A DNA stretch of 64,000 nucleotides, from assembly GCF_009914755.1 (NCBI RefSeq), contig NC_060925.1, one strand, 5' to 3'. The notes under the pieces are model-generated. The model was given only the letters and a program-made list of their open reading frames with translations. It was not told the DNA's origin and made no database searches. Positions within the stretch are counted from its first letter, which is position 1. The number at the start of each line of letters is the position of its first letter. Below are positions 55,601-60,092 of the stretch, one piece after another. This DNA comes from the human T2T-CHM13v2.0 reference genome, Homo sapiens. Both the position numbers and the translations under genes were made by a program.

Positions 55601-56388
55601 TTCCTATCTTACATTTTTCTCTACTGCTTTGAATTTACTTTTATGAACCTATATTGCTTTTAAAATGGAAAAGAAAAAAGTTAAAGAAGGAATTAGGGAC
55701 CAATAAGAGGTAATTCATCAAGAAAAAAAGGAATTTACCAAATGTATCCTTAGAAGTCAAACTCAGCAATAGGACCTAAAGGCAGGTAAGACATGGTGGC
55801 TGATTGATGGACCCTTCCTGACAAGCTGACATGGCCAAATGAAGAGGGTTTGCTCTCATTCATTAAGCTCGATTTCCTTGAGACCCAAGCAGTCTTGCTG
55901 TGGGGCCCCAATAATGTGGCTGAGGAGAGTGGTGCCCTTTCCCATTAGAAGCAGACTGCAGAGTTGTCAAAGCACAGAAGGGGAAGCACTGGTAGCCGGA
56001 GCCCCTGGCAGAGATTGGCGCTCATGAAAGAGTCTGGAGGCAGCAGGCATTGGATCTCCAGCAGCCTGGATCTCCAGCTTACTTCCCACCAAGTCTTGGT
56101 ACAGTGGAGGTGATGGCAGAACTGCAAGTATCCAGCAACAGCAGAAGGAGACAGTCATCAGGACTGGGCTAGGAATGCATGGTCGGGGGTGGGTAAGACA
56201 AGCTTGGAGAATCTCAGAAACACTTGAGGAAAAGCTATCAGAGACTGGAATGTCTGAGTGAGTACTTAAGCAATTTAAATTAATGATATTCAGTTTTCAC
56301 TCACGCATCTGATACACTGAGCTCTTATTATATGCAAGGCACAGTACCAACCACAGGAGATACAGCAGTGAGCAAGGTAAACACAGAA

Positions 56389-56394
56389 TTTATT
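56389..56394 (-). terminator. Candidate polyadenylation signal (AATAAA) for the GPCR pseudogene transcript
   Basis: TTTATT on the plus strand ~580 nt beyond the pseudogene's terminal stop. Confidence 0.45.
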
Positions 56395-56591
56395 AAGTTG
56401 AATTGGGTGGAAATAAAATTTCCAATATTCAACTTTTGGGGACTTATAAAAATGATAATGTCTTATGGGTCAACATGAATACATTCTGGCAAGAGAGAAA
56501 GAAAACAACAACAACGCATTACCCAATTAATTGCTTGATTACAATTATGAAAAGAGCTATCAAAGAGCAATCCGATCTGATTCAGTCGTGT

Positions 56592-56623
<32 letters not shown>

Positions 56624-56974
56624 TGCCAGCCAAGAAAGGCTTCCCTATAAGGAGTTACTTTAGAGGAAGTGAGGGTGAAGAAGAACTAACTTAGTGAAAG
56701 AGAGGAACAGAGATCATTCCTGGCCAAGTCAGGTACAAAGGCCATGAAGAGTAGGAGACCGGCATTTTCCCGGGCCTAAGAAGGTGACTGCCTGCAGGGA
56801 GACGCAGGGGTGGTGGGTTAGGGAGAGAAAGGGGAGCCAAATCAGACAGGGCCTTGTAGGCCATGATAAGGACTTTGGGTTTTATCCCAAGAGGTTTAAA
56901 AAAAACACAGTGGTATATTATTTGTATCCAAAAGCTGGCAACATCCAGGGAACATTCGGGTTACAAAGAATGTT

Positions 56975-58128
56975 CTATGTCCTTGGTACAGATGAGCCCG
57001 GAGGTTCACAGCTACAGGGGTAGTATGTGGTTGCGTCAGGATTAGAATCTAGGTCTTTCCAAAGAGCTTTCTCCACCCTGGATGCCACTGGGAGGGTGAC
57101 AGGGGGGTGAGACAGGAGGGGAGGCCAGGAGACTCTCCAAGAGGAGGCCAAGGAGGCCCCATGCGCCCTGGGCGCCCCCTTCACCAGGCGGCAGCTCAGT
57201 GCCCAGCAGCAGTCCTGGTGGAAGAGGCGCACGAAGAAGCAGCAGATGAGTGGGTCCAGGCAGCTGTTGAGGCTCAGCAGCGCCAGGCTGAGGGTGTGCA
57301 GGATGTCGAGCGTGGAGGCGGCGCGACACCGGTCTCCGTTGTCTTCCCCCCCAGCCACCTAGGGCGCCAGCAGCAGGTGGTTGGGCGCCAGACTGAGGGC
57401 GAAGACCAGCAGGAACCCCAGGACCATGGTCTTGGCCGCGCGCCGGTGCGCGCCGGCGGTTGCAGGGCCCGGGCCCGGGCCAGAGGGCGCCTTGAGCGCC
57501 CGCGCCAGGCTCACGTTGGCCGCGAGCACAAGCAGGAAGGCGGCCGCGAAGGCCACCGTGGCGGAGGCCAGCCCCGAGCTTGCCCAGCGGTGCTCCAGGC
57601 AGGGAGGGGCCAGGCCCGCCAGCCAGGCGAAGGCGCAGGCAGCGCGCGCGGGGCGCCGTAGGCACCGGGCCAGGCGGGCAGCCGCCCTGGGCCCGGGACC
57701 GCGTACGAAGCCGCAGCGGCACACGCTGATGAGCGCGGCGAAGACCACCGCCGCATAGGTGGACACGTAGTAGGTGGCCCCGGCCGCGTGGCAGGCGGCC
57801 TCCGGGCCAGGCCCAGGTAGTAGGTGAGCCACAGCTGCAGCGTGAGCGTGAAGAACTCATCAACCAGAGCCAGGTTGAACAGGTAGAGAAGCAGGGCCTG
57901 GCCCAGGCGCCCGCCGCTGCGGATGAACATTGCCAGGGCCGCCACGTTGGCTGGCAGCCCCAGGCCCAGTGCCAAGGCATAGGCCGCGGGCACCACGATG
58001 AAGCGAGCAGGGTCATCCCAGAGGCTGCAGCCGCCAACACCCAGGTCCCCAACACTGCTGTTCATCTCTGACCTTGAAGTGGCAGAAGAAAGGTTACTGC
58101 GGAGGCTAGCGACAAAGGCAGCCCCCAT
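56975..58128 (-). pseudogene. GPR199P: Class A (delta-group) GPCR pseudogene, PTAFR-like, with intronless coding region
   Basis: TM1 PAAYALALGLGLPAN, TM2 YLFNLALVD..LTLQLWLTYY, frameshift ~57806, TM3 CHAAG..TY..ISVCR, TM4 W, ECL2 CLEH, TM5, TM6 FALSLAPNH, TAG at 57361-57359, TM7 NSCLDPLIC. The symbol (formerly LOC653160) is from memory and less certain than the family call. Confidence 0.9.
57150..58045. promoter_or_regulatory. CpG island over the GPCR pseudogene body
   Basis: Dense CpG and very high GC content. Confidence 0.85.
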
Positions 58129-58789
58129 TCCACCTTCTCCCACCCCAGTCTCCTCTTCTTCAGCCCTTGCTGGGAGGGGACACTAGAGGCAGAGTCCATG
58201 TGAGAGGGAATGAAGACCGAACCTGGCCAGCAGCTGCTGAGAGGAGGGTATGGACTCCAGAGTTTTTGGTGACAAACTGTGGGAAGCGAGGAAGAGGCAG
58301 GAGTCCTAGATAACTTGGAAATTTCCAACCTTAGTGACTGAGAGGGTAGAGATGCCCCTCACAGATGGAGTATGGTTCATACATGTTGGGCCACAGACCT
58401 GTGCAGTAAACCCACGTAGGACTGAGCCAACAGGGAGTTCTGGAGAAACAGGCTGAAATATAAAGAAGAGGCCTTTCCAGAAAAAGCCCCAACACCCGCC
58501 CCCCCCTCCCCGCCCCCATCCCTGTGCCACCCAGATGAGAAGCATGGATGGAGGAATGGGCTTGCGGTGCAGTGCCTATGCACACTGACCTCAGACTTGC
58601 CTTGGTGAAGGTCCTCTCCCAGAGAGGTGCCCCAGCGCTTGCCTGGAGCACCCTTGGCTGGGCTGAAAAGCTTTTGCCACTCTCAAGCCTTTCATCCTGT
58701 TTCCTCCCCCCTCACTTTTTGACCACAAAGAGGTCCTGGGTCAGACTCAAACCTCTGGACAGAAAAGCAAAAAGTGCACAGACCCAGCA

Positions 58790-58945
58790 ATCAGGCAGAT
58801 TCTAGATAACACACATCTATTTGCCATGTGACCTTGGGCAAATTACTCAGCTTCACTGAGCCTGTCTTTGCTGCAGTAAAATGGAGATGAAAATACCTAC
58901 CTCACAGGGTTGTTGGGAGGATTATGAGAAAACCTAAGTAAAACT
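58790..58945. mobile_element. MIR fragment
   Basis: TGTGACCTTGGGCAAATTACT...GTAAAATGGAGAT...CTACCTCACAGGGTTGTTGGGAGGATT. Confidence 0.8.
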
Positions 58946-60092
58946 GAGCCCTGTGGCTGACACTGGGGAGATACTTCATTACTGTTAGTTCCCTTCCCTT
59001 CTAGGCAGCACATAGATAAATGTGTACACTCACACAGGCACACACAGTGTGTCAGAGACACAGACACCCCAGGCACACAAAACAACACAAAAACATCTGG
59101 GCATATTCCTACCCTCTTCCCAAGGGAGTAAGTGCACAAACCAATGTCCTGTTACTATTTGTGACACACTTACACACTCCTAGGATGTCCTAAAACTCAG
59201 TTCTTCCAAAATCTGCATTTTTGCCTTTGAGCATCTCAGGCTCCAATCCTTTCTGAGACCCTGGGTAACTGTATTTCCTTTCCCACCTTCCTCTATTCTG
59301 TTCTCCATGCCTGTAGCCCCACCCTGACCCATCCCCTGCCATCCTACCAGACTGTTCCTTTCTTGCCTCTTGCTATAATGGCTGCTGGAGTTCTCTCTGG
59401 GGTCCTGACTTTAAGGATCTGAGACAGGGGAGAATCCCCTCCCACCCACACATCCCAGACCCTCCTATCGCCAGCTAATCCCAAGAAACGACATGAAGAA
59501 TGGGTCCGACAGCTGGAAGGGCTGGAGCCCACCTGTGGCAGCTATGAGCTGGGTTTTTGGGGCTGCAGTAGGGCCCCAAGGGAAGGGAGTGTCATCGGAG
59601 GACAAGAAAGCCTTCAGCACAGGGAGGGAGATAAAAATGTATTAGGAAGGGCAGGCAGCTGAACGTCATCGTGCTGAGCTGACCTAGATTTAGGCTGTAG
59701 TTTGGGGGGCACGTTTCCTGAGGCCTGGCTTCTCCTTGGGCTGCTAAGGAGGCACTGCTTGGGCTCAAGATCCTCCTGCTGCTGTCAATCCCAACTGCTC
59801 GTACACACCAGCTGCCCAGCCTACTCCTCTAGCACCCTGACTTTCCTGCAGCTGCTGGGCAGTCCTACAGCCAAGCTTGGGGGGCCCAGTAGCTGCTTAT
59901 CAGCCTACAGACCCAGACTTGGTAAACAGGAGCCCTCAATCTAATGCTAGCTGCGAGAGGTTTTACTCAAAGTCCATCCTGGCAGGAGACGGGCTGGCGG
60001 TGGCATCCTGGAAGGGGTGGAGAAAGAATAAGGCCAGGATCCTCGGGGCTCCAGGCTCTACTTTCAGGGGCTTCAAAATTTTCAAGCAAGAT

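What the first reader, a model, noticed from the sequence alone, without database searches (positions are those of the whole stretch)
56975..58128. Lost paralog of the platelet-activating factor receptor: a disabled PTAFR-like GPCR
Seen: three ORF pieces join into a 7TM class A GPCR. From recalled human PTAFR sequence, the match is specific rather than generic: CHAAG..STY vs CNVAG..NTY; ECL2 CLEH vs CFEH; FLLVLAANVSLARAL vs FLIILFCNLVIIRTL; APNHLLLAP* vs VPHHVVQLPW; HTLSLALLSLNSCLDPLICCF vs [21 protein letters not shown]. Lesions: an ECL1 frameshift (23 nt between YY and the TM3 Cys, against 36 nt in PTAFR); an apparent in-frame loss of about 20 codons of TM4/ECL2; a TAG where PTAFR has the TM6 Trp; and Y-to-C in DPxxY. 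Inference: this is too divergent to be a PTAFR retrocopy. It looks like a unitary pseudogene of an ancient second PAF/lipid receptor that may still be functional, and orphan, in other vertebrates.
Basis: partly seen in the sequence, partly recalled or inferred. Interest (0 to 1): 0.8.

Follow-up and report, generated by a model that had tools for sequence, protein, structure and literature searches.

The report
GPR199P, a dead PAF-receptor-like gene

Summary
On the minus strand, three ORF pieces (58065-57805, 57805-57362, 57358-57140) join into a class A GPCR. Four defects disable it: a 13-nt ECL1 deletion that shifts the frame, a net loss of 19 codons at TM4/ECL2, a TAG at 57361-57359, and Y-to-C in DPxxY. 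Human also differs at 20 of 110 columns that are invariant in 11 intact orthologues.

Intact 320-350 aa orthologues, auto-named "PAF receptor-like", turn up in afrotherians, a xenarthran, carnivores, cattle, a mole, marsupials, platypus, birds, reptiles, salamanders, lungfish, coelacanth, a chimaera and a teleost. In a maximum-likelihood tree this clade (100/100) is sister to PTAFR. The split of the two from 27 other purine-branch receptors has 100/99 support.

The ECL1 and ECL2 deletions are shared with gibbon and Old World monkey gene models, so the gene was dead before the catarrhines diverged. Among the catarrhine sequences examined, only human has the TAG.

It is not new. RefSeq names the locus GPR199P, and Rinne et al. 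2019 named the GPR199 clade "near PTAFR". What I add is the lesion map, the dating, and one residue result: GPR199 keeps W73, W255 and H275, listed as essential for PAFR activation (the last two in 0 of 27 outgroups), but not Q252 or H188. The ligand remains unknown.

The parts
57805..58065 (-). Coding remnant 1: N-terminus, TM1, ICL1, TM2 and the start of ECL1 (87 codons, ATG at 58065-58063). It keeps the NSS glycosylation sequon, the TM1 Asn (57946-57948), the TM2 Asp (57859-57861) and the Trp equivalent to PTAFR W73 (57829-57831). The TM2 Pro that is invariant in the orthologues is Gln here (57835-57837).
   Evidence: Pfam 7tm_1 16.9 bits on this piece alone, below the cut-off; best solved-structure match is GPR4 at 31.7 bits, with PTAFR at 26.4
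57805..57807 (-). ECL1 lesion site. About 13 nt are missing: the four codons H-W-P-F that 9 of 11 intact orthologues have here (the Trp in all 11), plus one base. This gives a -1 frameshift, and the last codon of piece 1 and the first codon of piece 2 share base 57805.
   Evidence: (alignment to 11 orthologues; 23 nt between YY and the Cys codon against 36). Frame 1 read on from the ATG stops after 184 codons.
57362..57805 (-). Coding remnant 2: end of ECL1, TM3 (Cys 57791-57793; CRC at the DRY position, 57713-57721), ICL2, shortened TM4/ECL2, TM5, ICL3 and TM6.
   Evidence: Pfam 7tm_1 25.3 bits on this piece alone
57602..57607 (-). TM4/ECL2 lesion site. Two Pro codons stand where eutherian orthologues have 21 residues (CAAPS...GGAAR), an in-frame net loss of 19 codons. 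The ECL2 Cys (57599-57601) is kept.
   Evidence: The same 'GLAPPC' junction is in 5 of 6 non-human catarrhine models.
57359..57361 (-). Premature stop TAG. It replaces a Trp that is invariant in 17 of 17 GPR199 sequences and in PTAFR (W255), at the extracellular end of TM6.
   Evidence: Gibbon models have W (2 of 2) and Old World monkey models have R (4 of 4).
57140..57358 (-). Coding remnant 3: ECL3, TM7 (NSCLDP at 57251-57268; TGC Cys at 57242-57244 where the orthologues have the DPxxY Tyr), helix 8 with one extra Cys codon (57206-57211), and the C-terminal tail.
56975..57139 (-). Open frame beyond the point where 9 of 11 orthologue models end. It starts with a TGG at 57137-57139 and runs to TAG at 56975-56977. 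It is probably not ancestral coding sequence, although seal and mink models also run on here.
56369..58072 (-). Terminal exon of the annotated transcript NR_037869.1. It holds the whole receptor remnant. An AG acceptor lies at 58074-58073, AATAAA at 56394-56389, and a (GT)18 tract at 56588-56623.
   Evidence: hub annotation

Best explanation
The locus is GPR199P. It is the non-processed (unitary-type) pseudogene of GPR199, a single-coding-exon class A GPCR of the purine/lipid (delta) branch and the sister paralogue of the platelet-activating factor receptor PTAFR.

Shown here:
- The ancestral gene predates the split of cartilaginous and bony fishes.
- It is still an intact, conserved 320-350 aa ORF in many mammals, birds, reptiles, salamanders, lungfish, coelacanth, a chimaera and a teleost.
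- In the human lineage it lost function before the ape / Old World monkey split. Those species share the 13-nt ECL1 frameshift deletion and the 19-codon TM4/ECL2 deletion.
- Further damage then built up: TAG at the W255-equivalent Trp, Y-to-C in DPxxY, and changes at 20 of 110 otherwise invariant positions.

Inferred:
- The human locus makes no receptor. At most it makes a 184-aa TM1-TM2 fragment followed by out-of-frame sequence. It persists only as a spliced, polyadenylated non-coding transcript.
- The intact receptor in other species probably binds a choline-phospholipid-like or other amphipathic ligand in a pocket related to PTAFR's but not identical to it.
For: Anatomy and lesions.

GPCR identity: Pfam 7tm_1 scores 41.7 bits against a cut-off of 30.5 on the read-through.

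Closest solved receptor: PTAFR scores 43.3 bits against 33.4 for the next, using the human TM3-7 read-through. With the profile of 11 intact orthologues, PTAFR scores 174.9 bits against GPR183 150.9, GPR34 145.3 and GPR4 141.3.

Orthologues: 36 hits with the human read-through and 141 with the profile, of which 120 were listed. They span the taxa named above.

Tree (49 rows, 340 columns, IQ-TREE LG+C20):
- Human sits among the eutherians.
- GPR199 clade 100/100.
- PTAFR clade 99/94. It holds the human PTAFR crystallisation construct P0146, P0134 (PTAFR 290.8 bits against 150.8 for the next) and P0140 (213.9 against 156.6).
- The split of both clades from 27 other representatives has 100/99 support.
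- A first quick tree of 77 rows gave the same grouping (98).
- Forcing GPR199 together with the GPR4-like clade costs 14.4 lnL, p-AU 0.018.

Shared derived residues: W255 and H275 of PTAFR are present in 17 of 17 GPR199 sequences and 0 of 27 outgroups.

Relaxed constraint:
- Human differs at 20 of 110 columns invariant in 11 orthologues. Leave-one-out controls give 0-2 for eutherians and marsupials, 5 for platypus, and 9-10 for turtle and bird.
- The human terminal branch is 0.22, against 0.03-0.13 for the other eutherians.

Dating (sequences):
- The ECL1-deletion signature is in 5 of 6 non-human catarrhine models; the sixth splices the region out.
- The ECL2 junction is in 5 of 6; the Pygathrix model skips the region.
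- Ser for the TM6 Cys is in 6 of 6.

Prior knowledge: RefSeq annotation GPR199P / NR_037869.1 (hub); Rinne et al. 2019.
Against: The tie to PTAFR is not visible in raw identity. GPR199 sequences are 25-30% identical to human PTAFR, the same as GPR4-, CysLT2- and PAR1-like representatives are. The N-terminal human piece alone scores better against GPR4 than against PTAFR (31.7 against 26.4 bits).

The AU test group was chosen after the tree was seen, and its p of 0.018 is only moderate.

Ten rows, among them the human row and five mammalian GPR199 rows, have an amino-acid composition unlike the rest of the alignment (Ala/Gly/Pro/Leu-rich, GC up to 0.79). This can distort trees.

I removed 29 representatives between the first and second tree, after seeing the first. 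The first tree, which included them, agrees.

The deletion sizes come from protein alignments, because no orthologue DNA was available. Synteny in other species was not tested.

Predicted protein models are not proof of function. Several models (harbour porpoise, seals) look damaged themselves.
Confidence: 0.95

Rival explanations
1. It is a processed pseudogene (retrocopy) or a recent duplicate of PTAFR that has diverged.
For: PTAFR is the best-scoring solved receptor. The whole coding remnant lies in one exon, as a retrocopy's would.
Against: Identity to human PTAFR is only 24.6%, against 74-80% to eutherian GPR199. The locus nests within a clade that reaches cartilaginous fish. The annotated transcript has two upstream non-coding exons and a proper AG acceptor (hub annotation). 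The only tandem repeat in 56300-59400 is a (GT)18 tract, with no A-run.
Confidence: 0.01
2. The locus still encodes something useful: a truncated or re-spliced receptor-like protein (such as the 290-aa model P0001) or a TM1-TM2 micro-protein.
For: The locus is transcribed and spliced (NR_037869.1, hub annotation). The ATG at 58065 opens a 184-codon frame. A database model, P0001, splices around the lesions.
Against: P0001 lacks TM3 and TM6. The 184-aa frame is out of frame after TM2. Human has changes at 20 of 110 invariant positions, including the DPxxY Tyr and the TM2 Pro. Old World monkeys carry different additional frameshifts, so no frame is conserved among catarrhines.
Confidence: 0.03
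3. The pseudogene transcript has acquired a regulatory non-coding RNA role.
For: It has three exons, an AATAAA 20 nt before its annotated end, and a RefSeq 'transcribed pseudogene' status. It appears in expression and ChIP gene lists. Its possible older symbol LOC653160 also appears in such lists (listing only; the link between the two symbols is recalled, not checked).
Against: No functional study turned up in the searches. Being transcribed is not evidence of function.
Confidence: 0.1

Closest known systems
GPR199 (orphan clade named by Rinne, Tanoli, Khan and Xhaard, Sci Rep 2019, PMC6504862) and its human entry GPR199P (RefSeq NR_037869.1)
   Same: It is the same gene. The window locus is annotated GPR199P. 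Its read-through groups with the 'PAF receptor-like' proteins of other vertebrates at 100/100. The paper places the clade 'near PTAFR' and lists gar, coelacanth, sauropsids and two mammals.
   Different: Nothing differs in kind. The passages I read do not mention the human pseudogene, its lesions or their age. The species range found here is much wider. The paper's supplements could not be opened.
PTAFR, platelet-activating factor receptor (solved structures 8XYD, 5ZKP, 5ZKQ)
   Same: It is the sister family in the tree (100/99) and the best profile match (174.9 bits).

Shared features:
- a 12-residue stretch between YY and the TM3 Cys;
- C-[FL]-E-H after the ECL2 Cys;
- an Asn/Ser/Cys-Arg triplet instead of Asp-Arg at the DRY position;
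- DPxxY instead of NPxxY;
- W73, Y77, H249, W255 and H275 identical in 17 of 17 GPR199 sequences, with W255 and H275 in 0 of 27 outgroups.
   Different: It is a paralogue, not an orthologue, and identity is only 25-30%. Residues reported to contact the phosphate and acetyl groups of PAF differ: Q252 is Leu or Ile in 17 of 17, H188 is never His, H248 is Tyr and F97 is Tyr (residue roles from PMC12648956, passages read). PAF binding therefore cannot be assumed.
Other human unitary GPCR pseudogenes, such as GPR33 and GPR42 (recalled, not tested here)
   Same: A receptor gene intact in other mammals but disabled in the human lineage and still transcribed.
   Different: GPR199P is much older and more heavily damaged, with deletions shared across catarrhines. 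This makes a polymorphic or recently lost status implausible.

Membership tests
Class A (rhodopsin-like) GPCR, Pfam PF00001 7tm_1 | Profile match above the curated cut-off | tested here: met
   41.7 bits against a cut-off of 30.5 on the TM3-TM7 read-through with X at the stop. The single pieces fall below the cut-off (16.9, 25.3, none).
Class A (rhodopsin-like) GPCR, Pfam PF00001 7tm_1 | Seven helices with the landmark residues intact: TM1 Asn, TM2 Asp, TM3 Arg, the TM3-ECL2 Cys pair, TM6 Pro and the TM7 (N/D)PxxY Tyr | tested here: not met
   The Asn, Asp, Arg, both Cys and the TM6 Pro are present. TM4/ECL2 is 19 residues short, the frame breaks in ECL1, TM6 ends in TAG and the DPxxY Tyr is Cys. 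It is a remnant of a member, not a working member. The helix-position labels are my reading of the alignment.
GPR199 clade (Rinne et al. 2019) | Phylogenetic grouping with the vertebrate 'PAF receptor-like' orphan set, apart from PTAFR | tested here: met
   Clade support is 100/100. Human sits among the eutherians at 74-80% identity. The paper's own reference sequence (an Ensembl gar protein) was not available for direct comparison.
PTAFR orthologue group | Grouping inside the PTAFR clade | tested here: not met
   It is the sister clade, not inside. Identity to human PTAFR is 24.6%.
PTAFR orthologue group | Conservation of the residues reported as essential for PAF activation (W73, F97, F174, E175, W255, H275) and of the PAF head-group contacts (Y77, Q252, H188) | tested here: inconclusive
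   In GPR199, W73, W255, H275 and Y77 are identical in 17 of 17, E175 in 15 of 17 and F174 in 13 of 17. F97 is Tyr in 17 of 17, Q252 is Leu or Ile in 17 of 17, and H188 is never His. The residue list comes from PMC12648956, a docking/MD paper citing the 8XYD structure paper, which I did not read.
Unitary (non-processed) pseudogene | Disabling lesions in a gene whose orthologues are intact elsewhere, with no close functional copy in the same genome | tested here: met
   Lesions. Intact orthologues. The nearest solved human receptor is PTAFR, at paralogue-level similarity only. The human genome itself could not be searched for a second copy.
Unitary (non-processed) pseudogene | Same syntenic position as the intact orthologues (DLGAP3-TMEM35B interval) | not testable with these tools
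   No vertebrate genome DNA was on hand. There is one indirect hint: the macaque model made of this sequence is named 'transmembrane protein 35B isoform X1', and several others are named 'transmembrane protein-like'.
Processed pseudogene (retrocopy) | High identity to a parent gene, no own introns, poly(A) remnant | tested here: not met
   Identity to PTAFR is 24.6%. The annotated transcript has three exons (hub annotation). The only tandem repeat found is a (GT)18 tract, with no A-run.

The most novel reading that the evidence does not exclude
GPR199 may be a working receptor for a choline-phospholipid mediator (PAF-like, lyso-PC-like or oxidised PC). It keeps the PTAFR-specific activation residues W255 and H275 and the aromatic/acidic cage (W73, Y77, Tyr for F97, E175), but it has replaced the phosphate and acetyl contacts (Q252, H188).

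It appears intact in cattle, bears, afrotherians, marsupials, birds and reptiles. It is dead in all catarrhines examined. No rodent protein appeared among the 120 listed hits. If so, a second PAF-like signalling axis could exist in livestock and wildlife that human and mouse pharmacology would not reveal.
Probability: 0.25. Interest if true: 0.55.

Novelty: already known. Interest (0 to 1): 0.2.

Why it matters
For the human genome this is bookkeeping. The locus is correctly annotated as a transcribed pseudogene, and it has no receptor function to discover.

The useful residue is comparative. GPR199 is an orphan receptor next to PTAFR that catarrhine primates lack, so PAF-family lipid pharmacology worked out in human cells may miss a receptor present in cattle, carnivores, birds and reptiles. 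The lesion map and the shared PTAFR-type residues give a concrete starting point for deorphanising an intact orthologue. The catarrhine-wide deletions also give a minimum age for the loss.

Tried and rejected
PTAFR retrocopy: rejected.

Raw pairwise identity as a test of PTAFR affinity: uninformative. It is 25-30% to PTAFR and equally to the GPR4-, CysLT2- and PAR1-like representatives.

The regex for the TM5 Tyr in the table also matched a TM1 'PAAYA' motif, so I did not use that column. The TM5 residue was read from the sequences instead. Human has Asn there, gibbons Tyr, colobines Cys. PTAFR itself has Asn at the aligned position, so this change alone need not be disabling.

The position of PTAFR H188 in GPR199 differs by one residue between HMMER (Tyr) and MAFFT (Ala). 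Neither places a His there.

Literature:
- 'GPR199P' gave 1 paper, a ChIP-seq gene list.
- 'GPR199' gave 4 papers. Two are misprints of GPR119, one is the gene list, and one is Rinne 2019.
- 'platelet-activating factor receptor-like' gave 0 papers.
- 'LOC653160' gave 5 expression-type papers, seen as a listing only.

Earlier findings of this scan were not open.

Not attempted, because the tools hold no vertebrate genome DNA: dN/dS, exact nucleotide boundaries of the deletions, synteny, and a search for orthologues in New World monkeys, strepsirrhines, rodents or bats beyond what appeared. No such proteins were among the 36 and 120 listed hits, which is not evidence of absence.

No structure prediction was run, because a 7TM fold would not tell GPCR subfamilies apart.
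Full report
**What is in the sequence**

On the minus strand between 58182 and 56975 there are three stop-to-stop ORFs of 223, 165 and 127 codons. Together they read as a class A GPCR.

- The first piece holds a conserved start (ATG at 58065-58063, MNSS...), TM1 and TM2, and ends its sensible reading at ...LTYYLGLA (codon 57807-57805).
- The second piece is in the frame one base back. It picks up at PEAAC... (first codon 57805-57803) and runs through TM3, a short TM4/ECL2, TM5, ICL3 and TM6 to a TAG at 57361-57359.
- The third piece is in the same frame as the second. It carries ECL3, TM7 (NSCLDPLICCF), helix 8 and a tail.

Pfam's 7tm_1 model scores each piece below its cut-off. It scores the TM3-TM7 read-through, with X at the stop, at 41.7 bits against a cut-off of 30.5 (E 1.2e-10).

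The 23-nt against 36-nt spacing between YY and the TM3 Cys is also exact.

**What it is**

A search of about 5.8 billion predicted proteins with the read-through returned 36 hits. The top hits are 320-350 aa proteins, auto-named 'platelet-activating factor receptor-like', from a golden mole, aardvark, elephant, anteater, bears, seals, mink, cattle, a mole, two marsupials and platypus. More distant hits come from a guineafowl and a turtle.

A profile of 11 intact-looking members (alignment A1) found 141 proteins, of which 120 were listed. These add many birds, turtles, crocodilians, squamates, two salamanders, a lungfish, two coelacanth copies, the chimaera Callorhinchus and the teleost Scleropages.

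Human is 74-80% identical to six eutherian orthologues, which are 80-89% identical to each other.

**Relation to PTAFR**

The A1 profile scored against all solved structures puts PTAFR first: 174.9 bits, against GPR183 150.9, GPR34 145.3 and GPR4 141.3. The human TM3-TM7 read-through alone also ranks PTAFR first, 43.3 against 33.4 bits. The short TM1-TM2 piece ranks GPR4 first, 31.7 against 26.4 for PTAFR.

For a tree I ran the profile against 1.84 billion cluster representatives. That gave 6476 hits at E up to 0.001, 95 at E up to 1e-30, and 150 listed. Of the 131 proteins new to the session, 91 covered at least 270 profile positions and were no longer than 520 aa.

The first tree was a quick ML tree of 77 rows: human, 16 named GPR199 proteins and the 60 best representatives. 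It joined the GPR199 clade (SH-aLRT 99) to a three-row clade (97), with support 98 for the pair.

I labelled clades by searching members against the PDB:
- P0134 is a PTAFR orthologue (290.8 bits against 150.8 for the next family).
- P0140 is PTAFR-like (213.9 against 156.6).
- P0152 is GPR4.
- P0143 is CysLT2-like.
- P0155 is PAR1-like.

The second tree was a careful one (49 rows, 340 columns, LG+C20+F+G4, 1000 ultrafast bootstraps). For it I removed 29 long or redundant representatives, chosen after seeing the first tree. I added P0146, which matches the human PTAFR-lysozyme crystallisation construct. The results were:
- GPR199 clade 100/100.
- PTAFR clade 99/94.
- The split of the two from 27 other representatives 100/99.

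Forcing GPR199 together with the GPR4-like clade costs 14.4 log-likelihood units, p-AU 0.018. That group was named after the tree was seen.

Three caveats apply. Raw identity does not show the relation, since it is 25-30% to PTAFR and the same to the other families. Ten rows, including the human row and five mammalian GPR199 rows, have a skewed composition, and GC reaches 0.79 in this stretch. The root is not inferred.

**Lesions**

Against the 11 intact orthologues (coordinates), human shows:

1. A missing stretch of about 13 nt in ECL1: the four codons H-W-P-F (present in 9 of 11 orthologues, the Trp in all 11) plus one base. This gives a -1 frameshift at 57805.
2. A net in-frame loss of 19 residues at the end of TM4 and in ECL2. 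Two prolines at 57607-57602 replace 21 residues. The ECL2 Cys is kept.
3. Loss of one Phe codon in TM5.
4. TAG at 57361-57359 in place of an invariant Trp.
5. Cys for the Tyr of DPxxY (57244-57242).
6. Smaller changes:
   - Gln for the invariant TM2 Pro;
   - Ser for the TM6 Cys;
   - Asn for the Tyr after the TM6 Pro;
   - Asn for the TM5 Tyr;
   - two extra codons in a GGCCCG repeat in ICL3;
   - four fewer codons in ECL3;
   - one extra Cys codon in helix 8.

In total, human departs at 20 of 110 columns that are invariant across the 11 orthologues. When each orthologue is left out in turn and tested the same way, the counts are 0-2 for eutherians and marsupials, 5 for platypus, and 9 and 10 for turtle and bird. 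The human terminal branch is 0.22 substitutions per column, against 0.03-0.13 for the other four eutherians in the tree.

The frame that opens at the ATG would give 184 residues, out of frame after TM2.

The Trp lost to TAG is the equivalent of PTAFR W255, at the extracellular end of TM6. It is not the CWxP toggle position, where this family has Leu and PTAFR has Phe.

**Age of the loss**

The six non-human catarrhine gene models among the hits are all broken or mis-spliced: two gibbons, baboon, macaque and two colobines. Their peptides can still be read.

| Feature | Non-human catarrhine models |
|---|---|
| Peptide signature of the ECL1 deletion, in one of the three frames | 5 of 6; the sixth model splices the region out |
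| 'GLAPPC' junction of the ECL2 deletion | 5 of 6; the sixth skips the region |
| Ser for the TM6 Cys | 6 of 6 |
| Residue at the position of the human TAG | Trp in 2 of 2 gibbons; Arg in 4 of 4 Old World monkeys |
| DPxxY Cys | both gibbons; Old World monkey models are already in another frame there |

So the gene was disabled before apes and Old World monkeys split, roughly 25-30 million years ago by the usual primate timescale (recalled). The stop arose later, on the lineage to humans after the gibbon split.

No New World monkey, strepsirrhine, rodent, lagomorph, bat or horse protein appeared among the listed hits. That may reflect loss, or poor assembly of a very GC-rich gene, and I cannot tell which.

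**How the intact receptor might work (inference)**

A docking/MD paper on PAFR (PMC12648956, passages read) lists W73, F97, F174, E175, W255 and H275 as residues previously recognised as essential for PAFR activation. It places the choline near W73, Y77, F97 and E175, the phosphate near Q252 and H275, and the acetyl group near H188 and Q252.

I mapped these onto 17 GPR199 sequences, 3 PTAFR-like representatives and 27 outgroups:

| PTAFR residue | In GPR199 (17 sequences) | Same residue in outgroups (27) |
|---|---|---|
| W73 | identical, 17 of 17 | 6 of 27 |
| Y77 | identical, 17 of 17 | 15 of 27 |
| W255 | identical, 17 of 17 | 0 of 27 |
| H275 | identical, 17 of 17 | 0 of 27 |
| E175 | identical, 15 of 17 | 18 of 27 |
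| F174 | identical, 13 of 17 (Leu in the four eutherians) | 9 of 27 |
| F97 | always Tyr | 23 of 27 |
| Q252 | always Leu or Ile | 2 of 27 |
| H188 | never His | 1 of 27 |
| H248 | always Tyr | 1 of 27 |

The pocket is therefore related to PTAFR's in its aromatic/acidic cage and its two family-specific residues. It differs where PAF's phosphate and acetyl groups sit. A choline-lipid ligand is plausible but unproven, and identity with PAF cannot be assumed.

**Comparison with what is known, and verdict**

RefSeq annotates the locus as GPR199P, 'G protein-coupled receptor 199, pseudogene', with a three-exon transcript whose last exon (56369-58072) contains the whole remnant (hub annotation). The AG acceptor at 58074-58073 and an AATAAA 20 nt before the annotated end agree with this.

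Rinne et al. 2019 (PMC6504862; abstract, outline and two passages read) named a clade 'near PTAFR', with gar, coelacanth, sauropsid and two mammalian members, GPR199. They counted it among the receptor clades without human orthologues.

In the open literature searched, no paper describes the human lesions, their age or a ligand.

The additions here are incremental: the lesion map, the pre-catarrhine dating, the wider species range and the residue comparison with PTAFR.

Noticed in passing
window 56588-56623: A (GT)18 microsatellite lies inside the terminal exon of the GPR199P transcript, downstream of the receptor remnant.
   Followed up: no
window 57713-57721 and orthologues P0004-P0033: At the DRY position, eutherian GPR199 (human included) has Cys-Arg-Cys. 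Platypus and turtle have Asn-Arg-Tyr, marsupials Ser-Arg-Tyr, and PTAFR Asn-Arg-Phe. The mammalian stem branch is long (0.63), and the mammalian proteins are strongly Ala/Gly/Pro/Leu-rich. This may reflect GC-biased evolution of the gene in mammals.
   Followed up: partly
proteins P0005, P0017, P0020, P0023, P0028 (seals, porpoise, narwhal): Several marine-mammal models lack parts of TM4/ECL2 (the grey seal model lacks the ECL2 Cys) or have other gaps. Several cetacean models are short fragments. This could mean independent decay of GPR199 in marine mammals, or just poor models of a GC-rich gene.
   Followed up: no
proteins P0052, P0067, P0077, P0024, P0003: Automatic names are misleading. Some bird and alligator GPR199-clade proteins are named plain 'platelet-activating factor receptor'. 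The macaque model made of GPR199P sequence is named 'transmembrane protein 35B isoform X1', and gibbon and whale models are named 'transmembrane protein-like'.
   Followed up: no
window 57450-57749: GC content peaks at 0.79 within the receptor remnant, against 0.34-0.5 in the flanks.
   Followed up: no
window 57464-57481: The two extra ICL3 codons in human sit in a GGCCCG triple repeat (GPGPGP), which looks like replication slippage.
   Followed up: no
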